A DNA stretch of 32,000 bases from Nostoc sp. PCC 7120 = FACHB-418 (GTDB taxonomy: Bacteria > Cyanobacteriota > Cyanobacteriia > Cyanobacteriales > Nostocaceae): NCBI RefSeq assembly GCF_000009705.1, contig NC_003272.1, positions 2,190,001 to 2,222,000 on the forward strand, read 5' to 3'. The position numbers were made by a program, and so were the translations under genes. Numbering within the stretch: position 1 is the first letter of the stretch; every line of letters starts with the position of its first letter. Under the pieces are notes generated by a model. It was not told the origin of the DNA. It searched no databases and saw only the letters and a list, made by a program, of their open reading frames with translations. Below, piece by piece: positions 22,895 through 31,837 of this stretch.

Positions 22895-25108
22895 ATGACT
22901 GCAATCACACCCAAGGCTTCGTCAGCGCTTCCCGAATTTTCAGAAGGTATTCAATATTTTGGTGAGGCGCTACCAGATTTTGAAACTTATGGTGCCACAC
23001 CTGCGATAGAATCGGGAAAAGTAGCGATCGCAGATCCGAAAGACCCAAAAGCTGTGTATCAAACCTTACTAGCTGCTGATGCCCTCCGCTACTTAACACT
23101 ACAAGTCACTGCAAGTAAGGCATCTGGGCATCCCGGCGGCTTTGCTAGCCAAGCAGAAGCCTATGCAGCCTTGGTCATGCTGGGGTATAAAAACATTATT
23201 ACCGAAGTCGGACATCACGCACCAGGGTTTTATAGTGCCATGTTCCTCGATCGCTCCTTAGAGGATATGGGCATATCTACAGTACAACAATTGCGCGATC
23301 GCTTCCGCGAAAAGCATGGACTCTTAGGACACCTCTCCGGTTACATCCCCGGTATTCTCGCCCCCGCCGGCCCTCTAGGACAAGGACAGCACTTTGCAAT
23401 GGCGGCTGCACTCCTCCACCGTGACAAACTTTTCCCCTTCACCCTCGGCGACGGTGGACTAGGTGAACCCTACATCATGAGTTCAATGGCGCACTTTAAC
23501 ACCGCCTATCCCAGCGTCACCAACTTCTTACCGGTGTTAGTGTGGAACGGTTACAGCCAAGAACATCACAGCATGGTTTCCCTGAAAACCAACGCACAGA
23601 TGACAGCATTCTGGCAAGGTAATGGATTTGAGGAAGTCATCTTAGTTGATGCCAAAGAATTTGACGACCAAAACCAACCAGGGGATTATGTTGATAGTAC
23701 CGCCTTTTCCCTTGAGCAACGCCTAGCCTTTACCAAAGCGATACTCGTAGCTGTAGATAAAGCTGCCCGTTCCGCCCTGGGTGGGAAGTTAACAGTCTTT
23801 ATTATCAAACAACTCAAAGGTGCAGGCGTTCACGCCAGAGGTGCAAAATCACACAACCTCTACCCCAAAGACACCCTAGACGCACCCCACATTGTGAGTG
23901 CATTAAAAACCCGTGCATTACCCCTAGAAGCTTGGCAAATCGTCAGAACCAACGCCGAACGCGCAGGTGGCGGCCCCGCAGCTAAGACAGTGGTGACAGA
24001 ATTTGAGTTACCATTGCCAGATTTAGGCGCGTTACCTTTAGAAGAATACGCAGTAGGCGGCGAACCCAAAGTTTCAACCACCGCAATGGGACGAATTGTG
24101 GGTGCAGTCGGACAAAAAGATGCGAAATTCCTAGTCACCAACGCCGACGGAAACGAAGCATCAGGTATTGGTAACATCAACCAAGCCTTAAAGATTATCC
24201 ACCCCACCACCGACGAATTATATAACCAAGCACCAAACGGGCAAGTTTACGAACCCCTGAGTGAAGATGCTTGTGCAGGTTTAGCCGTTGGTTTATCCTT
24301 GATGGGTGCAAGAACCCTCTGGTGTTCTTATGAATCTTTCGCCATCAACGGTTTACCAATTTGGCAAACCGTCATCCAAGCAATGGCAGAATTACGCCGC
24401 CAAACACCTTCAACAATTACCTTATTCACCGCCGGCGCATTAGAACAAGGACGCAACGGTTGGACACACCAACGTCCTGAAATCGAAGCTTATTTTGCTT
24501 CCATGATGCGGAACGGCAATGTTTTTCCAGTATTCCCCCCCGATGCTAACAGTACCCAAGTTTGTTATGACTGGGCGTTGACAACTAAGAATAAAGGAAT
24601 TGTCATCACCACCAGTAAATCACCCTTACCAATTCGCACCAGTTTTGCACAAACTCGCCAAGGTTTAGAAGATGGCGCAGTAGTGTTACATGAAATTGCT
24701 GGTGGTAAGACAGTTGTGTTTGCTGTCATTGGTGATATGACATTAATTCCAGTATTTGAAGCCGCAGCTTTCTTAGAAACTGAAGGTATCGGAGTGAAGA
24801 TAGTTTCTATCATCAACCCCCGCCGTTTGTATCGTTCTCATGATGTAGCTTGGGATACCTGTTCTGAAGCTGATAACGGTTTCATTGATGATGCTAAATT
24901 CGCCGAATTATTTGCTGGCGATGCCTTAATTGGTGTCACTGGTGGCGCGGCGGCGATGTTAGAACCAATCATGTTGCGGAGTAACAGCAAGCGCGATACC
25001 TTCGCCTGGAAGCGTGGGGAAACTACAGCTAGTGCTGGTGAGTTGATGGCGTTTAATGGTTTGACTGCTGAGGCGTTGACTAAGCGGGCTATTGAATTGG
25101 TGCATTAA
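22895..25108 (+). CDS. Thiamine-diphosphate-dependent enzyme of the transketolase/phosphoketolase superfamily
   Basis: 737 aa. The motifs are transketolase-like SGHPGGFAS and a TPP-binding GDGGLGEP...N segment. The N-terminus does not look like a canonical Xfp phosphoketolase. Confidence 0.6.
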   Translation: MTAITPKASSALPEFSEGIQYFGEALPDFETYGATPAIESGKVAIADPKDPKAVYQTLLAADALRYLTLQVTASKASGHPGGFASQAEAYAALVMLGYKNIITEVGHHAPGFYSAMFLDRSLEDMGISTVQQLRDRFREKHGLLGHLSGYIPGILAPAGPLGQGQHFAMAAALLHRDKLFPFTLGDGGLGEPYIMSSMAHFNTAYPSVTNFLPVLVWNGYSQEHHSMVSLKTNAQMTAFWQGNGFEEVILVDAKEFDDQNQPGDYVDSTAFSLEQRLAFTKAILVAVDKAARSALGGKLTVFIIKQLKGAGVHARGAKSHNLYPKDTLDAPHIVSALKTRALPLEAWQIVRTNAERAGGGPAAKTVVTEFELPLPDLGALPLEEYAVGGEPKVSTTAMGRIVGAVGQKDAKFLVTNADGNEASGIGNINQALKIIHPTTDELYNQAPNGQVYEPLSEDACAGLAVGLSLMGARTLWCSYESFAINGLPIWQTVIQAMAELRRQTPSTITLFTAGALEQGRNGWTHQRPEIEAYFASMMRNGNVFPVFPPDANSTQVCYDWALTTKNKGIVITTSKSPLPIRTSFAQTRQGLEDGAVVLHEIAGGKTVVFAVIGDMTLIPVFEAAAFLETEGIGVKIVSIINPRRLYRSHDVAWDTCSEADNGFIDDAKFAELFAGDALIGVTGGAAAMLEPIMLRSNSKRDTFAWKRGETTASAGELMAFNGLTAEALTKRAIELVH

Positions 25109-25299: not shown

Positions 25300-26013
25300 G
25301 TGATGCCTTCCAACTTCGAGCTAAGACTCAAACACTTAGAAGACAACATTAGACAAGACCAAGATTTGCTCAAAAAGTATCAAGATTCTTTGCGATATGA
25401 AGATGATCCACGCCGCCAGGCTAAGTACGAGCGGGAAATTCAGCAATTGCGTGAATCGGCTAATTGTTATCAGAAGGAATACGATGAACTGCAAATGCAA
25501 ATAACTGGTGAGTCAACTGTACAGATGCAGAACGTAGCTACCCAGTTGCAGCAGATGAACACCAAAATAGATAGATTGTATGCTGGTCAGAAGGCTATCT
25601 ATGAAAACATTAATCACTTACGTCAAGGACTACTAGCTCGTTATGATGCGGGTGAACAGAGGATAATTGCGGCACTTACTGAACAGTTAGATCAATCTCA
25701 GATGATTATGATTGCTACGGTTTTAGATGCAATAGAAACTAATCAAGTAACAGATGGAGAAATGCAATTAATCTTACAAGGAATACAGCAAAATATCAAT
25801 AAATTACAACAAAGTGGTACTGCTTTACCTCCTAGTCAATCAGCATTAGTGGAAGTGATCAATGCCCCTGAATTAGATTTCAAGCACAGATTGAAAGTTG
25901 GTATACCTATTGTCCCTTTTATTTTGGACTATGAAGGTGAATTAGAGCTAGGGACAGGAATAGACTTAGAAGCTGCTTGGAAAACTTTGATTATGCGATT
26001 GAAAGGAAAGTAA
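25300..26013 (+). CDS. Coiled-coil protein A of the ABC-3C/Lamassu-like operon; N-terminal helical hairpin shared with protein B, C-terminal hydrophobic/Gly motif
   Basis: 237 aa (GTG 25300 or ATG 25303). Heptad-rich throughout, with no catalytic motif seen. The C-terminus reads KHRLKVGIPIVPFILDYEGELELGTGIDLEAAWKTL. There is a 3-nt gap to the next gene. Confidence 0.75.
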   Translation: MMPSNFELRLKHLEDNIRQDQDLLKKYQDSLRYEDDPRRQAKYEREIQQLRESANCYQKEYDELQMQITGESTVQMQNVATQLQQMNTKIDRLYAGQKAIYENINHLRQGLLARYDAGEQRIIAALTEQLDQSQMIMIATVLDAIETNQVTDGEMQLILQGIQQNINKLQQSGTALPPSQSALVEVINAPELDFKHRLKVGIPIVPFILDYEGELELGTGIDLEAAWKTLIMRLKGK

Positions 26014-26016
26014 ATT

Positions 26017-26646
26017 GTGGAGATGGAGCAAGAACGTGAACAAGATTTAAAGAAACACATTGAAGAGGATAGAAAATTACAAAAAAAATTAGAAGATCAA
26101 TATCGATATACAGAGAATGAAAAAGAGAAGATTAAATTAGAAAAGGATATCAAAGAAATTCGACAAAGAATTTCTGGTTGGGAAGAAGAAATAAGCACAA
26201 TTAGTATGCAACGAAGAGAATCTATAGCTCGTGAAATGCCCTCTATTACATTTGATGAGCTAGATGTTGTGACTAAATTTATTCTTGGTATGCAACCTGC
26301 TTCTCCTGAAATTAACTTTAGCCTCACAGACATAACACAAAAAATATCAAAAAATCATCTCACCCAAGAGGTTCATTCTCTAATAACAATGGGAATGGGT
26401 AAAGTCAAAGATGTTGGTCGTTTTATTGAACATAATGCTGTTCTACGTCCTGAATTTCCAGACAAATTGACAGCAGGATTTCTTACGGAGTATCAAAAAT
26501 TATTACAAAAAGGAATTACAGGAGACGCTTTATTTGAGTCTTTACGTCAATTTTCCTGTGGTAATAGTTCAGATTTTAGGAAAGCCGCAGCTGGCTTGGC
26601 AGTTCTATCATATCTCTTCGAGAAATGTGAGGTGTTTGAGCGATGA
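26017..26646 (+). CDS. Protein B: N-terminal helical hairpin plus a C-terminal helical domain resembling ABC-three-component-system C-terminal (CTD) domains
   Basis: 209 aa (GTG 26017 or ATG 26023). Its stop overlaps the ATG of the next small gene (ATGA at 26643-26646). The C-terminal end AAAGLAVLSYLFEKCEVFER resembles endings I recall from ABC-3C effector-component CTDs. This is unverified. Confidence 0.7.
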   Translation: MEMEQEREQDLKKHIEEDRKLQKKLEDQYRYTENEKEKIKLEKDIKEIRQRISGWEEEISTISMQRRESIAREMPSITFDELDVVTKFILGMQPASPEINFSLTDITQKISKNHLTQEVHSLITMGMGKVKDVGRFIEHNAVLRPEFPDKLTAGFLTEYQKLLQKGITGDALFESLRQFSCGNSSDFRKAAAGLAVLSYLFEKCEVFER

Positions 26647-26787
26647 CCAATTCTATAGAATATTCTTCTACTTATAACTCCTCATTGATTTTACCAACAA
26701 AACATATTTCTACTATAGGAATCCTATTTGATTTGTGAACAAGACCAAGAGATAATACGGAGAGGGATAAAAGTCTAATAGTAAACA

Positions 26788-27357
26788 ATGAAAAGTCAGC
26801 ATTTACAAGCTACTACACTTGCGGGGGAAGTATCGCAGCAATATTTAAAAGAGGAAACTGCACTGAATGCGATTGCTGAATTACAAGATTTTATAGATAT
26901 GTGTCCAGATGCGCGTGAAGTAAGGAAAGCATTGGCAGTCAAGCTAGTTTATCAAGGTTACTTGTATGATGAAATCCAAAAAATTTTAGACGTATCGCGA
27001 GGGTCAATCACAGGCTGGAAGCAAGCCTATGAAGAAACTGGAATTGACGGACTGCGACTAAACTACAAAGGGAGAAAGAGCTATCTGAATGCTAAACAAC
27101 TCCAAGAGGTGTTGAGCTGGCTACAAACAAAAGATTGTTGGGAGCTTGGGGAACTAGAGTATCAACTAGCTTTTGAGTATGACGTAGTTTATGAGTCAAA
27201 GCAAAGCTACTACGACTTGTTCTCCGAAGCAGGAATCAGTTGGAAGAAAACCACAAAGGTAAATCCGAAAGCCGATGAGAATGCTGTTGCAGAAAAAAAA
27301 AAGAGATTGAAACATTGCTGGCAAATAACCGAGAAGAAATCGAAACAGGAAAGTTAA
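26788..27357 (+). CDS. IS630 transposase, N-terminal (HTH DNA-binding) frame
   Basis: 189 aa with helix-turn-helix-like segments (YDEIQKILDVSRGSITGWKQAY). An A10 run at 27293-27302 lies inside the overlap with the downstream frame. Confidence 0.85.
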   Translation: MKSQHLQATTLAGEVSQQYLKEETALNAIAELQDFIDMCPDAREVRKALAVKLVYQGYLYDEIQKILDVSRGSITGWKQAYEETGIDGLRLNYKGRKSYLNAKQLQEVLSWLQTKDCWELGELEYQLAFEYDVVYESKQSYYDLFSEAGISWKKTTKVNPKADENAVAEKKKRLKHCWQITEKKSKQES

Positions 27358-27899
27358 GAGTATTGTTAATTGATGAGTGTCATTTAATGTGGGGAGATTT
27401 AAGTGGTTATGTATGGGGAAAAAGTGACCAAGAAATCGCAGTCCCAGTTGTCAACGAGCGAGATAAGCAGACATACTATGGGGCAGTTGACTATCTCCTT
27501 GGAGAATTAGTTCTCAAAGCTTATGATGCTGGAAACTCAAAAAATACTATCAACTACCTAGAATACTTACTAGCTAACTCTCCCGACCAGCGATTACTAA
27601 TTTTTTGGGATGGGGCTAGCTACCACCGTTCCAAGGAAATTAGAGGTTTCTTGGACTCTGTTAATCAAAGCTTACCAACCGAGCAATGGAAAATACACTG
27701 TGTCCGTTTTGCCCCTAATTGCCCAGTACAAAATCCGATAGAGGATATTTGGTTACAAGCCAAAACATGGGTTAGACGTTTTTGTGCTTTAATTCCTTCA
27801 TTTTCACATTTAAAGTGGATATTTGAGTGGTTTATTAGACACACTACCTTTGATTTTGACACTCTACAGATGTACGGAACTTATTCAAAAATCAAATAG
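27315..27899 (+). CDS. IS630 transposase, catalytic DDE frame (-1 relative to the upstream frame; frame open from 27279)
   Basis: The motifs are LLIDECH, IFWDGASYHRS and NPIEDIW (DDE/D triad). A -1 shift on the A10 run would read ...AEKKKEIETLLANNREEIETGKLRVLLIDECH, a continuous transposase of about 370 aa. Confidence 0.85.
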   Translation: MLANNREEIETGKLRVLLIDECHLMWGDLSGYVWGKSDQEIAVPVVNERDKQTYYGAVDYLLGELVLKAYDAGNSKNTINYLEYLLANSPDQRLLIFWDGASYHRSKEIRGFLDSVNQSLPTEQWKIHCVRFAPNCPVQNPIEDIWLQAKTWVRRFCALIPSFSHLKWIFEWFIRHTTFDFDTLQMYGTYSKIK

Positions 27900-28102
27900 G
27901 ATTCCTATAGTTACTCTTTGTTAGGAGTAGGTGCTAAAATATTAGAACAATTGTACCAACCAAGAACAGTTTCATCTCTTTGGAGTGCTGTTTCTACCAT
28001 GCCAGAGGTTGCTACATTTGAACGTTTTGTACTAACGCTTGATCTTCTATACACTATAGGAGCAATTGAGATGGAGATGGGATTACTTCGGAGGTGTCAT
28101 CA

Positions 28103-29854
28103 ATGATTCATGCTGTTCGTTGTAATCAGCCATCATTTAAAACAGTTGAGTTCAGACCTGGTTTAAATATAGTTTTAGCAGATCGTACAGAAGATTCTGG
28201 ACAAAGAGATTCCCGTAATGGATTGGGTAAATCTACTCTCATTGAAATTATTCACTTTTGTCTTGGAGGAACAATTCAGAAAGCTAAAGGACTTGGTTCT
28301 AGAAATCTTCGTGGTTGGGCTTTTAGTTTAGAGCTTACACTTGCAAATCAAATTATCACCGTCACAAGAAATACTGAAGATAAGACTGAGGTAGTAATAG
28401 ATGGAAATACTACTAACTGGCCTATTCAACCCAAAGAACAAGAAGGTCACAAGGTTCTCAGTTTGGATGACTGGAAGGCTGTTTTAGGAAATTTAACATT
28501 TGGATTAAGCATTGATTATGATAAGAAATACAAGCCTACTTTTAGAGGACTTATTTCTTACTTTATCCGTCGTGGAAGAGACGCATTTTCTACACCATTT
28601 GAGCATCACAAAAATCAACTGAGTTGGGAAAAACAAATTAATAATTCTTTTCTCCTTGGTCTGGCTTGGGAAGACGCAAGAGAATTGCAACTTTTAAATG
28701 ATAAACAAAAACTGATAACAGATATTAAAAAACTTAAAAAAGATACAGAATCTGGCGTTGCGATTGGAATTTTAGGTTCGTTAGGTGAGCTTGAAGCGTT
28801 AAAAGTTCAGGTCGAAGCTCAACTACGTGAAAGAAAAGAAACATTGAACAATTTTCGTGTAGCAGAGCAATATCATGAATTAGAAGAAAGAGTTAATTTT
28901 TTAACATCGCAAATTCATGAGGCAACAAATAAAAATATTACTGACCAGAAATTACTAGAGTTTTATCAATCTAGTCTTAAATCAGAAGATGAACCAAGAC
29001 CAGATGATATCGTTAGTATATATGAGAATGCTGGCATTGAATTGCCAGGATTAGTAGTTAGAAGGCTAGAAGAAGTAGAAATATTTCATCGCCGATTAAT
29101 AGAAAATCGTAGAGAGTTTTTAGGAAGTGAAATCAAACGTCTTAGGCGGGATCTAGTTTCTAGAGAAAATTTTATTCGAGAAAAAAGCAATGAGCGTGCG
29201 GAATTATTAGAAGTTTTAAAGACGCACGGTGCTTTGGAAGAGTATACAATGCTACAAGAAATTTATCTTGATAATGTAGCTAACCTAAACGAAATTAATA
29301 AACGTATCGAAGAATTAAAACAATTTGAAGAAGAAAGAAGTAGCCTAAAAATTGAAAAAGAACTCTTGCTTCAACGTGCTAGACGCGACTATGGAGAACG
29401 AAATGAGCAAGCTGAACGTGCTATTGATTTATTCAGAATAAACTCTCGATTTCTCTATGATACTCCTGGAAGACTTATCATTGATGTAGGTAAAAATGGT
29501 TTTACTTTTGGAGTAGAAATTGGGCGAGATGGTAGTGAAGGTATCGATAAAATGAAGATATTTTGCTATGATTTAATGCTGGCACAGCTTTGGTCAGAAC
29601 GAGATCCTTCACCCCGAATACTAATTCATGATAGTACAATTTTTGATGGTGTAGATGAAAGACAAATATCTCTTGCTTTACAGTTAGTAGATAGAGAGGC
29701 TAGAAGCCGTGGCTTTCAATATATCTGCACATTAAATTCAGACATGATTCCACAGTCAGAGTTTTCTGCACTTGACTTTAATTTTCATTCCTTTGTCAGA
29801 CTTAGACTTACAGATGAGAATGAAGAAGGAAGATTATTAGGTATTAGCTTTTAG
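28103..29854 (+). CDS. SMC/Rad50-like ABC ATPase with long coiled-coil insert (ABC-three-component / Lamassu LmuB-like; DUF2326-like)
   Basis: 583 aa from ATG 28103 (the ORF track starts at GTG 28094). Walker A is SRNGLGKST. There are about 250 aa of heptad repeats (residues about 190-440), then GSEGIDK, Walker B RILIHDS and D-loop FDGVDE. The ATG overlaps the stop of the small gene (ATGA). Confidence 0.8.
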   Translation: MIHAVRCNQPSFKTVEFRPGLNIVLADRTEDSGQRDSRNGLGKSTLIEIIHFCLGGTIQKAKGLGSRNLRGWAFSLELTLANQIITVTRNTEDKTEVVIDGNTTNWPIQPKEQEGHKVLSLDDWKAVLGNLTFGLSIDYDKKYKPTFRGLISYFIRRGRDAFSTPFEHHKNQLSWEKQINNSFLLGLAWEDARELQLLNDKQKLITDIKKLKKDTESGVAIGILGSLGELEALKVQVEAQLRERKETLNNFRVAEQYHELEERVNFLTSQIHEATNKNITDQKLLEFYQSSLKSEDEPRPDDIVSIYENAGIELPGLVVRRLEEVEIFHRRLIENRREFLGSEIKRLRRDLVSRENFIREKSNERAELLEVLKTHGALEEYTMLQEIYLDNVANLNEINKRIEELKQFEEERSSLKIEKELLLQRARRDYGERNEQAERAIDLFRINSRFLYDTPGRLIIDVGKNGFTFGVEIGRDGSEGIDKMKIFCYDLMLAQLWSERDPSPRILIHDSTIFDGVDERQISLALQLVDREARSRGFQYICTLNSDMIPQSEFSALDFNFHSFVRLRLTDENEEGRLLGISF

Positions 29855-29902: not shown

Positions 29903-29953
29903 CGAATTAATACTTACGCCGTAACCCAACACTAACCCCTGATAAATAGTAAT
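29903..29953 (+). repeat. Copy 1 of a direct repeat preceding a toxin cassette
   Basis: CGAATTAATacTTaCgccGTAACCCAACAC...CCTGA..GATAAATAGTAAT. The first 30 nt match 30790-30819 at 24 of 30 positions. Confidence 0.7.
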
Positions 29954-29991: not shown

Positions 29992-30360
29992 TTGAATAAA
30001 GAGGATATAATCTACCAACAAGTTATAGCAATTGCTAGTAGTTACGGAATTTTTGATTGCATTCCCTGTGCTAGAGCAATCAAAGAATTTTTGATCAGAC
30101 AAAGTATTCATGGCAAGCATATTAAAATAGATACAAATTCTCAAGATTCAATTTATGGCAGGATTTATGATGATAGCATTGGTGAATTGATTGCTACTAC
30201 AGGTCATCATGAAGGTGTTATAATTGAGGTAAATGGCTTAGAAATTGTTTTTGATAACATCCACCATCAAGGAATAACGCGATTAGACTGGATACAAAAT
30301 CTCTATTCACCTATTCTAGATGCAGGATTAGAGTTTCAAATCACAGAAAGTTACTTTTAA
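29992..30360 (+). CDS. Stand-alone papain-fold-like toxin domain protein (Tox-PL-like), TTG start
   Basis: 122 aa with no Met other than the TTG-encoded start. The Cys is at a helix N-terminus (GIFDCIPCARAIKEFL), followed by GHHEGVIIEV and VFDNIHHQG. That is the Cys...His...Asp/Asn order of papain-like peptidase/deamidase toxins. The assignment is by eye and unverified. Confidence 0.5.
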   Translation: MNKEDIIYQQVIAIASSYGIFDCIPCARAIKEFLIRQSIHGKHIKIDTNSQDSIYGRIYDDSIGELIATTGHHEGVIIEVNGLEIVFDNIHHQGITRLDWIQNLYSPILDAGLEFQITESYF

Positions 30361-30383
30361 CCTAGAGAATTAGTGAGTCAAGT

Positions 30384-30725
30384 ATGAATAATTTATACAA
30401 CTTACTGCAAAAGATCAAAAAAAGACCTGCGATGTACTTAGGTAGAAATTCTATTTTTAGCCTGCAAGCATTTTTAGACGGCTACTACTTTGCACGTCGA
30501 GAAATTGGTATTAACTTAACAGAAGAAGAAGTAGAATTTCAAAACTTTTTACAATGGATAAGACACAGATTTAATGTAGAAACAGGTCAGTTATGGTCAA
30601 GTATTATTCTTTTCCATTCAGCAGATGAAAAAAGTGCAGTGGATAGATTTTTTACTTTGTTTGAAGAATTTAATCAACAGCATAAAAATCAGGAAATAGA
30701 AAAAATTGATCAGGTGGTTACGTAA
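30384..30725 (+). CDS. Putative cognate immunity protein
   Basis: 113 aa, 23 nt downstream of the toxin-like gene. The N-terminal KKRPAMYLGRNSIFSLQAFLDGYYFA pattern recurs in polymorphic-toxin immunity proteins, by my recollection. Confidence 0.45.
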   Translation: MNNLYNLLQKIKKRPAMYLGRNSIFSLQAFLDGYYFARREIGINLTEEEVEFQNFLQWIRHRFNVETGQLWSSIILFHSADEKSAVDRFFTLFEEFNQQHKNQEIEKIDQVVT

Positions 30726-30789: not shown

Positions 30790-30852
30790 CGAATTAATGT
30801 TTGCATTGTAACCCAACACCAAAATACCTGAATTTCCCCCAGATAATGTAAT
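30790..30852 (+). repeat. Copy 2 of the direct repeat preceding a toxin cassette
   Basis: CGAATTAATgtTTgCattGTAACCCAACAC...CCTGA...GATAATGTAAT, about 40 nt upstream of the vapB-like start. Confidence 0.7.
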
Positions 30853-30889: not shown

Positions 30890-31120
30890 ATGCTGCAAAT
30901 CATCAAAGCAACCTGCACCAACGGCGAACTTATTTTAAGTGAAAAACTCAGTTCCGAATTAGAAGGTAAAACCCTGCAAGTTATGATTATTGAACCCAGC
31001 GAACCTAATCAAGATCATCAAGCCTCAAAAATACAGCAATTTCTAGCACGAGTTAATAACTACTCTTTCCAAATACCCGTAGATTACAAATTTAATCGAG
31101 ACGAAATTTATGAAAGATAA
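30890..31120 (+). CDS. VapB-type antitoxin (small beta-rich N-terminus, cyanobacterial type)
   Basis: 76 aa. IIKATCTNGELILSEKL...LQVMIIE is typical of antitoxins paired with PIN toxins. It overlaps the PIN gene by 11 nt. Confidence 0.6.
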   Translation: MLQIIKATCTNGELILSEKLSSELEGKTLQVMIIEPSEPNQDHQASKIQQFLARVNNYSFQIPVDYKFNRDEIYER

Positions 31121-31430
31121 AATTTTTCTCGATACTAACCTCTGGATTTATCTCTATGCTAAAAATCCGCTCGAAAAATCCCAACAAGTTGCAGAAATCA
31201 TTAAAAATAATTATTCATTTCTGCTAGTTAGCACTCAGGTCTTAGGTGAATTATTTCATTTTTTAACCAGAAAAAAATCACATCTAAAACTGATGCAACC
31301 ACGATTATATCAGATATAGTTAATACCTTTCCAATTCAGGCAATTAACACAACAGAGGTTATACAAGCATTAGAAATTCACGCTAAATATAACTACTCTT
31401 ATTGGGATAGTTTGATTATACAGCACTTTG
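31110..31430 (+). pseudogene. vapC: PIN-domain (VapC) toxin gene, frameshifted in an A7 run (31271-31277) and 3'-truncated by an IS
   Basis: Frame 1 reads MKDKIFLDTNLWIYLY...VSTQVLGELFHFLTRKK. Continuing in the -1 frame gives ITSKTDATTIISDIVNTFPIQAINTTEVIQALEIHAKYNYSYWDSLII. The sequence then breaks off at TA 31429-31430, where the IS begins. Confidence 0.7.
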
Positions 31431-31477: not shown

Positions 31478-31837
31478 ATGAAACCCTACTCAGTAGACCT
31501 GCGCTCAAAAATTATTAGCGTTTACGAAGCGGGAAATACATCTATTCGCAAAGTAGCAGAAAGATTCAAGGTAAGTAAAAATACAGTACAAAACCTCGTG
31601 AAGCGAAAACGAGAAAAAGGGACGCTAGAGCCAAGTGTAGCGACAGGAGGAAAACCAAGCCAAGTATCTGGTTATGAACAACAGATAGAGCAAATGGTAG
31701 CAGAACATCTAGACTATACCCTAGCCGAATACTGTGAGTATTGGGAAGAAAAGACAGGGGTAAGGTTAAGTGAGAGTGCAATGTGCAGATTTCTTCAGAA
31801 ACAGAAGCTCACCCTCAAAAAAAACAGTACGAAGTAG
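31478..31837 (+). CDS. IS630-family transposase, N-terminal HTH frame
   Basis: 119 aa. YSVDLRSKIISVYEAGNTSIRKVAERFKVSKNTVQNLVKR is a typical IS630 HTH. The frame ends just after an A8 run (31817-31824). Confidence 0.85.
   Translation: MKPYSVDLRSKIISVYEAGNTSIRKVAERFKVSKNTVQNLVKRKREKGTLEPSVATGGKPSQVSGYEQQIEQMVAEHLDYTLAEYCEYWEEKTGVRLSESAMCRFLQKQKLTLKKNSTK

What the first reader, a model, noticed from the sequence alone, without database searches (positions are those of the whole stretch)
25300..29854. ABC-three-component / Lamassu-like conflict operon with coiled-coil proteins where an enzymatic effector would be expected
Four same-strand genes are packed with a 3-nt gap or ATGA start/stop overlaps: A (25300-26013), B (26017-26646), a small gene starting at 26643 (now split by an IS), and a 583-aa ATPase (28103-29854).

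The ATPase has an N-terminal Walker A (SRNGLGKST) and about 250 aa of heptad-rich sequence. A degenerate signature-like GSEGIDK, Walker B RILIHDS and D-loop FDGVDE follow at the C-terminus. This is a split SMC/Rad50-type ABC head. The Walker B Asp is followed by Ser, not the usual catalytic Glu.

The order 'variable protein, small helical protein, coiled-coil ABC ATPase' is that of the computationally defined ABC-3C systems (Krishnan, Burroughs, Iyer and Aravind 2020). That class includes Lamassu LmuA/C/B and Vibrio DdmABC.

In those systems the first protein normally carries a nuclease, protease, Sir2 or similar domain. Here I can find no catalytic motif in A or B; both are largely coiled coil. 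That makes this a variant with an unknown killing or sensing mechanism.
Basis: partly seen in the sequence, partly recalled or inferred. Interest (0 to 1): 0.85.

Follow-up and report, generated by a model that had tools for sequence, protein, structure and literature searches.

The report
Lamassu operon with hairpin-docked partner protein
This is an IS-disrupted four-gene Lamassu (SMC-like ATPase) anti-phage operon of Nostoc PCC 7120 in which the usual nuclease has been replaced by a small helical docking hairpin, also found on an extra upstream protein that belongs to a large, unnamed family paired in the same way with many other bacterial immune sensors.

Summary
alr1851 (A), alr1852 (B), a small gene split by an IS630-family element, and a 583-aa ABC ATPase form one tightly packed operon.

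Removing the IS restores an 89-aa ABC-3C middle component (MC6). The ATPase is a short LmuB (DUF2326; PADLOC PDC-M68B). B is PDC-M68A, a CTD10-type LmuA. The locus is therefore a type II short Lamassu.

In the sister clade, found in many phyla, the CTD10 protein carries an N-terminal HNH nuclease and there is no A gene (0 of 62 loci). In cyanobacteria a 65-aa helical hairpin replaces the HNH, and A is always directly upstream (21 of 21 loci). A begins with a homologous hairpin (hhalign 98%, E = 2e-14).

A is not an orphan: at least 950 representative clusters match it. In sampled metagenome loci, 42 of 45 stand-alone A genes are followed directly by a gene whose product starts with the same hairpin. 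Those partners are STAND NTPases, FGE-sulfatase, GUN4, SIR2-TPR or CTD10.

My reading is a split LmuA. B docks A to the LmuB/LmuC sensor. A's C-terminal helical domain, which has no Pfam, PDB or BFVD match, is the probable output, and its biochemistry is unknown.

The operon is probably inactive in PCC 7120 because of the IS. I classify it as a new variant of a known kind.

The parts
25303..26013 (+). Gene A (alr1851), 236 aa from the ATG (an alternative GTG lies at 25300). It is the constant 'A unit': an N-terminal hairpin plus a C-terminal all-helical AC domain.
   Evidence: ORF. Identity to alr1851. AF2 model is all-helical with pLDDT 80. Profile search finds 953 representative relatives.
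25312..25506 (+). Hairpin docking module of A (residues 4-68: helix, YEDDP turn, helix).
   Evidence: hhalign of the A family against the B family: Prob 98.3, E 2.1e-14, A 5-68 aligned to B 4-67. Helices H4-32 and H36-68. HP HMM E 2e-30.
25510..26010 (+). AC domain of A (residues 70-236), with the conserved tail motif P.LD.KH.LK...PIIP..L.YEGE.EL.G.NL...W. Biochemical function unknown; putative output domain.
   Evidence: Conservation. No match in Pfam, NCBIfam or PADLOC. No Foldseek match in PDB or BFVD. No TM segment; acidic and soluble.
26017..26646 (+). Gene B (alr1852), 209 aa: the LmuA equivalent, lacking an enzymatic domain (PADLOC PDC-M68A).
26023..26217 (+). Hairpin docking module of B (residues 3-67). 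It occupies the position of the HNH nuclease of the sister clade.
   Evidence: alignment shows the HNH replaced. AF2 H3-31 and H35-76 with pLDDT above 90.
26218..26643 (+). CTD10-type C-terminal domain of B (residues 68-209). By analogy with solved Lamassu complexes it is the LmuB/LmuC-binding and oligomerisation domain.
   Evidence: PDC-M68A 1.3e-40 over residues 65-208. Pfam CTD10/CTD11 at 0.007/0.01 for B itself. 12 of 22 family members hit CTD10 at 1e-3 or better.
26643..26715 (+). 5' fragment of lmuC (ABC-3C middle component MC6), codons 1-24.
26716..27907 (+). IS630-family insertion sequence interrupting lmuC. TA target duplication at 26714-15 and 27908-09. Transposase in two frames (26788-27357 HTH; 27315-27899 DDE_3) across an A10 run.
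   Evidence: Present in all PCC 7120-lineage assemblies examined.
27910..28106 (+). 3' fragment of lmuC (MC6). Joined to the 5' fragment it gives an intact 89-aa protein.
   Evidence: Restored ORF. Pfam MC6 PF20293 at 3.7e-18, above the gathering score. Orthologues of 75-89 aa in IS-free loci.
28103..29854 (+). lmuB: short SMC/Rad50-like ABC ATPase, 583 aa (DUF2326; PADLOC PDC-M68B). No zinc hook. Walker B is HDS.

Best explanation
The locus is a type II short Lamassu (ABC-3C) defence operon: a CTD10-type LmuA, an MC6-type LmuC and a DUF2326 LmuB.

The effector protein has been split in two. B keeps the CTD10 domain. In solved Lamassu complexes the equivalent domain is sequestered by an LmuB dimer plus LmuC, and it drives oligomerisation of LmuA once DNA ends are sensed. 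The ancestral N-terminal HNH nuclease of B has been replaced by a 65-aa helix-turn-helix hairpin.

The extra upstream gene A starts with a homologous hairpin. I infer that the two hairpins pair, probably as a four-helix bundle, so that A rides on B. Release and CTD10-driven clustering of B would then cluster and activate A.

A's C-terminal helical AC domain would be the output of the system. Its biochemical activity is unknown.

The hairpin/A unit is a general device. The same A gene directly precedes genes for hairpin-STAND NTPases, hairpin-FGE-sulfatase, hairpin-GUN4 and hairpin-SIR2-TPR. The logic resembles CARD-CARD recruitment and the EAD principle.

In PCC 7120 itself the operon is interrupted in lmuC by an IS630 element and is probably inactive.

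**Shown:** family memberships, the HNH-to-hairpin replacement, hairpin homology, strict A/hairpin co-occurrence, and the breadth of the A family.
**Inferred:** physical hairpin pairing, activation by clustering, and A as the output.
For: **Lamassu membership**
- DUF2326 1.8e-41, PDC-M68B 6e-201, PDC-M68A 1.3e-40 and MC6 3.7e-18.

**Replacement of the HNH**
- B residues 65-209 match proteins of about 250 aa with HNH_2 plus CTD10. The alignment shows HNH and hairpin as alternative N-termini.
- ATPases of the two clades are 39-55% identical.

**Co-occurrence**
- 21 of 21 hairpin-B loci have A 3 nt upstream. None of the 62 non-hairpin loci has A: 58 HNH, 2 PNP-nucleosidase, 2 truncated.

**Hairpin homology**
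- hhalign Prob 98.3, E 2.1e-14, confined to A 5-68 and B 4-67.
- Both are modelled as helical hairpins.
- Negative control: none of the LmuB ATPase ORFs in the loci censused, each with a long coiled-coil region, was hit by the hairpin HMMs.

**Independent parallel**
- Rhizonema L022 has a different helical module on its CTD10 protein. That module matches the C-terminal tail of the adjacent Peptidase_C14 caspase (35% identity, E 1e-8).

**Generality**
- 953 representatives of the A unit.
- 42 of 45 stand-alone A genes with downstream sequence are followed directly by a hairpin-first gene.
- Partner types: STAND NTPases 17 or more, FGE 6, CTD10 6-7, GUN4 3, and also KAP, PBP, HEAT, SIR2-TPR and caspase-TCAD9-EAD7.
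- The hairpin sits at the N-terminus of NB-ARC/NACHT-TPR proteins that have no other effector. That is the effector/adaptor position.
- Cognate hairpins are more alike than non-cognate ones (39.5% vs 33.6% identity, p about 1e-4).

**Lamassu mechanism from the literature**
- CTD sequestration, release on DNA-end sensing and CTD-driven tetramerisation.
Against: - No physical evidence of hairpin pairing exists, and AlphaFold-Multimer was not available.
- The AC domain has no recognisable catalytic, pore-forming or membrane motif and no structural match.
- In several other contexts the A unit accompanies or is fused to classical enzymatic effectors: SIR2, caspase, TIR, SEFIR and SLOG. There, A need not be the killing agent.
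- A recurrent TIR+AC protein without hairpin or partner would fit AC being a sensor or assembly domain.
- B's own Pfam CTD10 score is below the gathering threshold, and its model found no LmuA CTD in the PDB.
- Coiled-coil composition can inflate profile scores.
- Whether CTD10 behaves like the solved CTD7/CTD12 domains is an extrapolation.
Confidence: 0.6

Rival explanations
1. A docks to B through the hairpin as proposed, but its AC domain is not the executioner. It is a sensor, regulator or higher-order assembly scaffold. The actual toxic activity would then come from elsewhere: other A-unit or hairpin proteins encoded in trans (TIR-A, SLOG-A, hairpin-SIR2 and the like), or from LmuB/LmuC acting on DNA.
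For: - The A unit is fused to or paired with bona fide enzymatic effectors: TIR, SEFIR, SLOG/Cap17-like, DUF4062, SIR2 and caspase.
- It occurs C-terminal to STAND NTPases, REC and cyclase domains, positions typical of sensor or output-regulating modules.
- TIR+AC single-gene proteins have no hairpin and no partner.
- AC has no enzyme-like or membrane-active signature.
- Kaur et al. note that EAD-type adaptors recruit effectors encoded elsewhere in the genome.
Against: - In the commonest context, stand-alone A with hairpin-NB-ARC/NACHT-TPR, no other candidate output exists in the module.
- The same holds for the four-gene Lamassu cassette, which moves as a self-contained unit between unrelated genomic sites.
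- The search with A found no other A-family protein from PCC 7120. That search is word-seeded and could miss distant paralogues.
Confidence: 0.27
2. This is an effector-less Lamassu in the sense of the published 'Clade O'. The effector domain was simply lost. A is an unrelated neighbour or a minor accessory. The system acts without a dedicated effector, or it is degenerate.
For: [quoted passage not shown]
- No enzyme is found in the four genes.
- The PCC 7120 copy is IS-disrupted.
- An eroded deletion chimera exists (L158).
Against: - The HNH was replaced by a conserved, confidently folded 65-aa module, not merely deleted.
- A is present in 21 of 21 hairpin-B loci and in 0 of 62 others, with a 3-nt gap and a homologous hairpin.
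- A is well conserved (mean 68% pairwise identity) and co-varies with LmuC and LmuB (r 0.74-0.80).
- The Rhizonema variant couples a caspase by the same logic.
Confidence: 0.05
3. A is an inhibitor or antitoxin-like cap. By binding B's hairpin it keeps B from self-associating, and the toxic species is oligomerised B or the LmuB complex.
For: - The constant 5' gene followed by a variable 3' partner resembles some toxin-antitoxin and chaperone layouts.
- A is acidic and non-enzymatic.
Against: - B and most partners (TPR, FGE, GUN4, HEAT, PBP) have no toxic domain for A to restrain.
- The A unit is often fused in cis to effectors.
- AC, not the hairpin, holds the family's most conserved motif.
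Confidence: 0.08

Closest known systems
Short type II Lamassu / ABC-3C with HNH-CTD10 LmuA, MC6 LmuC and DUF2326 LmuB (PADLOC candidate system PDC-M68)
   Same: LmuB is 39-55% identical, with the same MC6 middle component, the same CTD10 domain, the same gene order with ATGA overlaps, no zinc hook and an HDS Walker B.
   Different: The sister clade has an N-terminal Cap5-like HNH nuclease on the CTD10 protein and three genes. Here the HNH is replaced by a helical hairpin and a fourth gene, A, is added. PADLOC models cover only B and the ATPase; neither MC nor A has a PADLOC model.
Structurally solved Lamassu complexes: V. cholerae DdmABC/LmuACB, Salmonella LmuACB, Bacillus LmuAB
   Same: An SMC-like LmuB with a Walker B that deviates at the catalytic Glu position, a small LmuC, and an LmuA whose CTD is sequestered and then oligomerises after DNA-end sensing. 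The proposed mechanism is borrowed from these.
   Different: Those systems use Cap4 nuclease with CTD7/CTD12 and MC3. There is no sequence match to any PDB chain for the ATPase and no fold match for B. Here the output is supplied in trans.
Lamassu 'Clade O' (Haudiquet et al. 2025), short Lamassu whose LmuA 'seemingly lost the effector domain'
   Same: A short LmuA without an enzymatic domain, next to intact LmuC and LmuB.
   Different: I could not determine whether Clade O is this clade, because no supplementary data are held. The paper reads the architecture as a loss. Here the domain is replaced by a docking hairpin with a dedicated partner gene.
Effector-associated domains (EAD1-11) and the EAD-coupling principle (Kaur, Burroughs, Iyer, Aravind 2020)
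   Same: A small, all-helical, non-enzymatic module with one copy on a core component and one on the product of the adjacent gene. Adjacent copies are closer to each other. It occurs in the same world of STAND, TIR, caspase, FGS and GUN4 proteins of multicellular bacteria.
   Different: No Pfam EAD model matches the hairpin. Here the constant partner is one specific protein of about 170 further residues (AC), not a varied set of effectors. Coupling to Lamassu/ABC-3C was not found in the literature I could read.
Lamassu-Protease with an accompanying hydrolase-like protein (four-gene Lamassu)
   Same: A Lamassu operon with an extra accessory gene next to lmuA.
   Different: There both proteins are enzymes and LmuA keeps its effector domain. 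No shared docking module is reported.
CARD-CARD recruitment in the apoptosome (Apaf-1 and caspase-9), from general knowledge
   Same: A homotypic helical adaptor at the N-terminus of a STAND NTPase recruits a separately encoded output protein carrying the same adaptor.
   Different: The fold is unrelated (a two-helix hairpin, not a six-helix Death fold). The recruited protein has no known enzymatic domain. This is an analogy only.

Membership tests
Lamassu / ABC-3C (type II, short) | SMC/Rad50-like ABC ATPase LmuB with the DUF2326 C-terminal head half, Walker A and a coiled-coil insert | tested here: met
   PF10088 DUF2326 1.8e-41; AAA_23; PADLOC LmuB models down to 3.7e-10; PDC-M68B 6e-201 over the full length. 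Walker A is invariant. At 583 aa it falls in the short class of about 600 aa.
Lamassu / ABC-3C (type II, short) | Small middle component (LmuC / MC1-8) encoded between lmuA and lmuB | tested here: met
   The restored 89-aa ORF hits PF20293 MC6 at 3.7e-18 (65.7 bits; gathering score 27.2). Intact orthologues occur in IS-free loci. In this window the gene is split by an IS.
Lamassu / ABC-3C (type II, short) | LmuA with one of the CTD1-12 C-terminal domains | tested here: met
   B matches PDC-M68A at 1.3e-40. B's own Pfam CTD10 score is 17.3 bits, below the gathering score of 28.1. It aligns end to end with HNH-CTD10 proteins, and 12 of 22 aligned members hit CTD10 at 1e-3 or better.
Lamassu / ABC-3C (type II, short) | [quoted passage not shown] | tested here: not met
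   The N-terminal 67 residues of B form a helical hairpin with no enzymatic family hit.
Lamassu / ABC-3C (type II, short) | Walker B in LmuB that deviates at the catalytic Glu position | tested here: met
   hhhHDS is invariant in 73 of 73 members. The literature reports E-to-Q or otherwise deviant motifs in LmuB.
Lamassu / ABC-3C (type II, short) | LmuB2:LmuA1:LmuC1 complex; DNA-end sensing; anti-phage or anti-plasmid activity | not testable with these tools
   This needs biochemistry and phage challenge. No multimer prediction was available.
PADLOC PDC-M68 (candidate defence system) | Adjacent PDC-M68A and PDC-M68B genes | tested here: met
   1.3e-40 and 6e-201. They are separated here by lmuC and the IS.
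Effector-associated domains (EAD principle, Kaur et al. 2020) | Small non-enzymatic, all-helical domain | tested here: met
   A two-helix hairpin of about 65 aa. It has no enzymatic hits.
Effector-associated domains (EAD principle, Kaur et al. 2020) | One copy on a core component and a second copy on the product of an adjacent gene | tested here: met
   21 of 21 Lamassu loci. 42 of 45 sampled stand-alone A genes. Also L087 and L088.
Effector-associated domains (EAD principle, Kaur et al. 2020) | Copies encoded by adjacent genes are closer to each other than to other copies | tested here: met
   39.5% against 33.6% identity across 29 non-redundant pairs; permutation p about 1e-4. The effect is modest.
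Effector-associated domains (EAD principle, Kaur et al. 2020) | Sequence membership in one of the described families EAD1-EAD11 | tested here: not met
   No Pfam EAD model hits A or B at E up to 1. EAD7 occurs as a separate domain next to the A unit in some proteins.
Effector-associated domains (EAD principle, Kaur et al. 2020) | Homotypic physical interaction of the two copies | not testable with these tools
   Requires AF-Multimer/AF3 or pull-down experiments.

The most novel reading that the evidence does not exclude
The A unit (hairpin plus AC domain) is a previously unnamed, widespread output module of prokaryotic immunity. It would be a non-enzymatic, or cryptically enzymatic, executioner or signalling hub. 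A dedicated two-helix adaptor recruits it to very different sensors: NB-ARC/NACHT STAND NTPases, KAP NTPases, FGE/GUN4/TPR binding proteins, SIR2 proteins and an SMC-like Lamassu complex.

This Lamassu would then be the first SMC-based defence system whose effector is delivered in trans by adaptor pairing. At least some Lamassu clades described as effector-less would in fact be adaptor-coupled.
Probability: 0.35. Interest if true: 0.85.

Novelty: new variant of a known kind. Interest (0 to 1): 0.68.

Why it matters
Lamassu is among the most widespread SMC-based defence systems. Current structural models explain activation as release and CTD-driven oligomerisation of an enzyme-bearing LmuA. A clade in which LmuA carries only a docking hairpin gives a natural test of that model with an unknown, apparently non-enzymatic payload.

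This also changes how the published "loss of effector" in short Lamassu can be read: for this clade the effector domain was replaced, not lost.

More broadly, following gene A uncovered a large family with no model in Pfam, NCBIfam or PADLOC. It has at least 950 clusters at 50% identity. It is the constant partner of hairpin-tagged STAND NTPases and other sensors in cyanobacteria, and is also found in an Acidobacteriota genome. That provides an experimentally tractable handle (a 236-aa soluble protein and a 65-aa adaptor) on how these poorly understood NLR-like systems produce their output.

Nostoc PCC 7120 is genetically tractable. IS-free cassettes are available in cultured strains, for example Cylindrospermum stagnale PCC 7417.

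Tried and rejected
1. **Hidden enzymatic domain in A or B.** Pfam, NCBIfam and PADLOC on single sequences and on all family members gave only coiled-coil noise for A.
2. **Structural matches.** AF2 models of A (pLDDT 80) and B (pLDDT 81.5) had no significant Foldseek hits against PDB or BFVD. The best E values were 0.33-0.59. The only local matches were generic dimerising hairpins such as ING4 and encapsulated ferritin.
3. **A as a paralogue of B, with AC as a divergent CTD.** Rejected: hhalign homology is confined to the first 64 residues.
4. **A as a membrane protein.** Rejected: the maximum 19-residue Kyte-Doolittle score is 0.86, and A is acidic and soluble.
5. **The downstream Tox-PL-2 toxin as the missing effector.** Rejected: it is not conserved next to the cassette in other genomes.
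6. **Sequence match of the ATPase or CTD10 to solved Lamassu structures.** None was found. Only the HNH of the sister clade matches Cap5-type HNH-SAVED entries.
7. **An IS-free allele in the PCC 7120 lineage.** None was found among the assemblies examined.
8. **Promoter and terminator scans.** Uninformative: 16 promoter-like sites against 15.3 expected, and no terminators.
9. **Literature.** Krishnan et al. 2020 (NAR) could not be read, so I cannot exclude that it mentions adaptor-type CTD proteins. No paper mentions PDC-M68. alr1851 and alr1852 are not mentioned in any held paper; the only hit of that search, an RNA-seq study, mentions alr1853 and alr1854.
10. **Automatic locus retrieval with diverse A alignments.** This failed for lack of a conserved stretch. 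A hand-made degenerate DNA pattern was used instead.

Full report
**1. The observation**

The window is from Nostoc/Anabaena sp. PCC 7120. Gene A is alr1851 and gene B is alr1852. On the + strand lie:
- A at 25300/25303-26013.
- B at 26017-26646, after a 3-nt gap.
- A small gene starting at 26643 in an ATGA overlap.
- A 583-aa ATPase at 28103-29854, which starts in an ATGA overlap with the stop of a 62-codon ORF.

Between the two halves of the small gene sits an IS630-family element at 26716-27907. It has perfect 19-nt terminal inverted repeats and a TA target duplication, and it encodes HTH and DDE_3 transposase ORFs. Removing it together with one TA copy gives an uninterrupted 89-aa ORF.

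G+C drops from about 0.45 to about 0.35 from position 25000 onward, as expected for an island.

**2. Family assignments**

- **ATPase.** It matches Pfam DUF2326 (1.8e-41), AAA_23, several PADLOC LmuB models, and PDC-M68B at 6e-201 over its full length.
- **Small protein.** The restored protein is an ABC-3C middle component, MC6, at 3.7e-18.
- **B.** It matches PADLOC PDC-M68A at 1.3e-40 over residues 65-208, and weakly Pfam CTD10/CTD11. Of the aligned relatives, 12 of 22 hit CTD10.
- **ATPase motifs.** Walker A, a signature-like S-x-G and the D-loop are conserved. The Walker B reads hhhHDS in 73 of 73 relatives, and none has a CxxC zinc hook.

A Walker B that deviates at the catalytic glutamate is a recognised LmuB trait. 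At 583 aa, with CTD10 and MC6, the system belongs to the short, diverged Lamassu sub-family (CTD6-12, MC2-8) described in the structural papers.

The LmuA equivalent is B, not A.

**3. What replaced the effector**

Homologues of B fall into two classes. Cyanobacterial proteins of about 210 aa match over the full length. Proteins of about 250 aa from many bacterial and archaeal phyla match only B residues 65-209, and carry an N-terminal HNH_2 domain.

The alignment shows a common CTD10, from EMPxVTFxEL to CEVFEK, preceded either by an HNH (CxxC...AHI...H...CxxCH) or by the cyanobacterial helical segment. That HNH is related to Cap5-type HNH-SAVED effectors.

I fetched 80 loci from reference genomes and took a census of them together with the four IS-free loci:
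- All 21 loci whose CTD10 protein has the helical N-terminus have an A gene 3 nt upstream, followed by MC6 and the ATPase.
- None of the 62 other loci has A. Of these, 58 are HNH-CTD10, two are Planctomycetota loci with a PNP_UDP_1 nucleosidase fused to CTD10, and two are truncated.

ATPases of the cyanobacterial clade are 72-87% identical to the window's. Those of the HNH clade are 39-55% identical.

IS-free four-gene cassettes sit between unrelated genes in Cylindrospermum, Tychonema, Coleofasciculus and Waterburya. The four genes are therefore one mobile unit. The downstream Tox-PL-2 gene is not part of it.

**4. A and B share a docking hairpin**

Profile-profile comparison of the A and B families gives 98.3% probability and E = 2.1e-14, restricted to A 5-68 and B 4-67. 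The shared motif is L..HI..D..L.K..ED.LRYEDDP+.K.K....I..L......Y..EL.

AlphaFold2 models this region as a helix-turn-helix hairpin in both proteins (A H4-32/H36-68; B H3-31/H35-76, pLDDT above 90). In each protein an all-helical globular part follows.

The hairpin HMMs never hit any LmuB ATPase ORF in the loci censused, even though each has a long coiled-coil region. The signal is therefore not merely coiled-coil composition.

The one cyanobacterial exception is informative. In Rhizonema sp. PD37 (L022) the CTD10 protein carries a different N-terminal helical module. The upstream gene encodes a Peptidase_C14 caspase (5.6e-22) whose C-terminal 55 residues match that module at 35% identity, E = 1e-8. 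The same coupling logic has thus arisen twice on this Lamassu backbone, once with a recognisable enzyme.

**5. A is not an orphan**

A full HMM search of 1.84 billion representatives with the A-family profile found 953 proteins at E of 1e-3 or better and 546 at 1e-10 or better. The whole A unit (hairpin plus AC domain) occurs in two forms:
- **Stand-alone**, at about 230-250 aa.
- **Fused**, to REC, TIR, SEFIR/TIR, DUF4062, SLOG/Cap17-like, guanylate cyclase, EAD7, TRADD-like-N and STAND NTPase domains.

None of these proteins has a Pfam model covering the A unit.

Three gene contexts were then examined:
- A stand-alone A-like gene overlaps the start of an 807-aa SIR2-TPR gene whose product begins with the hairpin (2e-17).
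- A TRADD-N/A-unit protein follows a caspase-TCAD9-EAD7 protein that carries the hairpin internally (1e-28).
- A third stand-alone A-like gene (Waterburya) sits in another four-gene Lamassu cassette.

A scan of the metagenome collection with a degenerate pattern for the invariant AC tail motif returned 80 loci, 75 of them real. Of the 45 stand-alone, hairpin-bearing A genes with room downstream, 42 are followed directly, mostly with a -4 or +3 nt spacing, by a same-strand gene whose product starts with the hairpin and lacks AC.

Partner types among the 48 partners found:

| Partner type | Count |
|---|---|
| NACHT/NB-ARC STAND NTPases, often with TPR | 17 (plus 3 further P-loop proteins among the unclassified) |
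| FGE-sulfatase | 6 |
| CTD10 (complete Lamassu cassettes) | 6-7 |
| GUN4 | 3 |
| KAP NTPase, periplasmic-binding-protein fold, HEAT | 1 each |
| Unclassified or truncated | 13 |

Cognate A and partner hairpins are more alike than non-cognate ones (39.5% vs 33.6%, p about 1e-4), and some pairs are nearly identical.

In a rough NJ tree the partner types are interleaved, and Lamassu-coupled A proteins fall into two groups. A is therefore a constant component whose hairpin-tagged partners are exchanged.

This matches the three architectural criteria of the effector-associated-domain (EAD) principle of Kaur et al. 2020. The hairpin itself matches none of the Pfam EAD families.

**6. Mechanism**

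*Established for other Lamassu systems.* An LmuB dimer and LmuC sequester the CTD of a monomeric LmuA. Sensing of DNA ends releases LmuA, which oligomerises through its CTD and thereby activates the N-terminal effector.

*Inferred here.* B's CTD10 plays that role. B's hairpin holds A through a hairpin-hairpin bundle. Release and clustering of B then cluster and activate A.

*Why A is the likely output.* In the commonest context the hairpin occupies the N-terminal effector/adaptor position of NB-ARC/NACHT-TPR proteins that have no other output domain. The Lamassu cassette likewise contains no other candidate.

*What AC does is unknown.* It is soluble and acidic, has no TM segment, has no fold match, and carries its strongest conservation in the tail P.LD.KH.LK...PIIP..L.YEGE.EL. 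Candidate activities are a toxic oligomer, a cryptic all-helical enzyme using D192/H195/Y210/E211/E213, or an assembly platform.

*The main rival.* AC may be a sensor or scaffold and not the executioner. This is supported by its frequent association with classical effectors (TIR, SIR2, caspase, SLOG) and by TIR+AC single-gene proteins.

I put about 0.6 on the split-LmuA model with A as output, and about 0.27 on the model in which A docks but is not the killer.

**7. State in this genome**

lmuC is split by the IS in every PCC 7120-lineage assembly examined. The window is identical to another complete genome across the operon. LmuC is an integral part of type II complexes, and the IS separates A and B from lmuB. 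The system is therefore probably inactive in this strain. All coding sequences are otherwise intact, which suggests a recent event.

**8. Novelty**

Lamassu/ABC-3C is known, and B and the ATPase are already catalogued as the PADLOC candidate PDC-M68. Short Lamassu without an LmuA effector domain has been noted, and read as a loss.

In what I could search, the following appear to be new:
- The replacement of the effector by a docking hairpin.
- The obligatory fourth gene.
- The size and partner range of the A family.

Caveats:
- Krishnan et al. 2020 could not be read.
- Clade O could not be mapped onto this clade.
- All interaction claims are inferences from sequence.

Noticed in passing
window 29992-30725, with repeats at 29903-29935 and 30790-30822: A Tox-PL-2 papain-fold toxin gene (PF15643, 2.7e-30) is followed by a 113-aa probable immunity gene. 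The pair is bracketed by a 33-nt direct repeat (79% identity). This looks like a small toxin/immunity cassette and is not conserved next to the Lamassu cassette elsewhere.
   Followed up: partly
window 30890-31319 and 31478-31837: A small overlapping gene pair lies at 30890-31319: a 76-aa ORF plus a 69-aa PIN-like ORF (weak PF01850 in L210), apparently truncated. A second, different IS630-type HTH transposase ORF follows at 31478-31837. The region from 25 kb to 32 kb is a low-GC island of defence and mobile genes.
   Followed up: no
window 27290-27303 (inside the IS): The IS630 transposase is read in two overlapping frames across an A10 run. The gene caller of another PCC 7120-type genome reports a single 370-aa product from identical DNA. 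This is either a programmed frameshift or an annotation join.
   Followed up: partly
window 26017-26646 versus L001, L010-L020: B occurs in divergent allelic types on otherwise similar cassettes. Pairwise identities of B correlate poorly (r 0.3-0.4) with those of A, LmuC and LmuB, which co-vary with each other (r 0.7-0.8). For example, Nostoc loci have an ATPase 86% identical to the window's but a B only 44% identical. This suggests recombination or diversifying selection on the adaptor/CTD protein.
   Followed up: partly
window 28979-29269 (ATPase residues 293-389): The Pfam CTD10 model hits the coiled-coil apex region of the ATPase at 5e-8 (34 bits, above the gathering score). That is stronger than its hit on B's own CTD10. 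Orthologous ATPases show the same hit. It is either a helical-composition artefact of the model or a real relationship between the LmuB apex and the LmuA CTD.
   Followed up: no
L022 3174-4791 (Rhizonema sp. PD37): This Lamassu variant has a CTD10 protein with a different N-terminal helical module, matched by the C-terminal tail of an upstream Peptidase_C14 caspase. It is a second, independent adaptor-coupled Lamassu, this one with an enzymatic effector.
   Followed up: yes
L026 3313-4590 and L027 (Planctomycetota): A PNP_UDP_1 (nucleoside phosphorylase/nucleosidase) domain is fused to CTD10 in the same LmuB clade. This appears to be a further Lamassu effector type.
   Followed up: partly
L158 12494-12952; L165 3035-6378: These are eroded or rearranged cassettes. 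In L158, B (residues 1 to about 80) is fused in frame to the ATPase from about residue 385, a deletion chimera. In L165 the A-like gene lies convergently downstream of the ATPase instead of upstream of B.
   Followed up: partly
L093, L099, L101, L115, L126, L162 (metagenome): Recurrent proteins of about 320-354 aa have an N-terminal TIR domain and the AC domain but no hairpin, and where downstream sequence is present (L093, L099) no hairpin partner gene follows. This may be a single-gene system, and it bears on whether AC is a sensor/assembly domain or an effector.
   Followed up: partly
L107, L111, L113, L136, L143 (metagenome): A nearly identical two-gene module was seen repeatedly: a stand-alone A (227 aa) with a 325-aa hairpin-FGE-sulfatase protein. 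FGE/FGS domains are the DGR-diversified binding domains of cyanobacterial conflict systems. I did not look for diversity-generating retroelements nearby.
   Followed up: no
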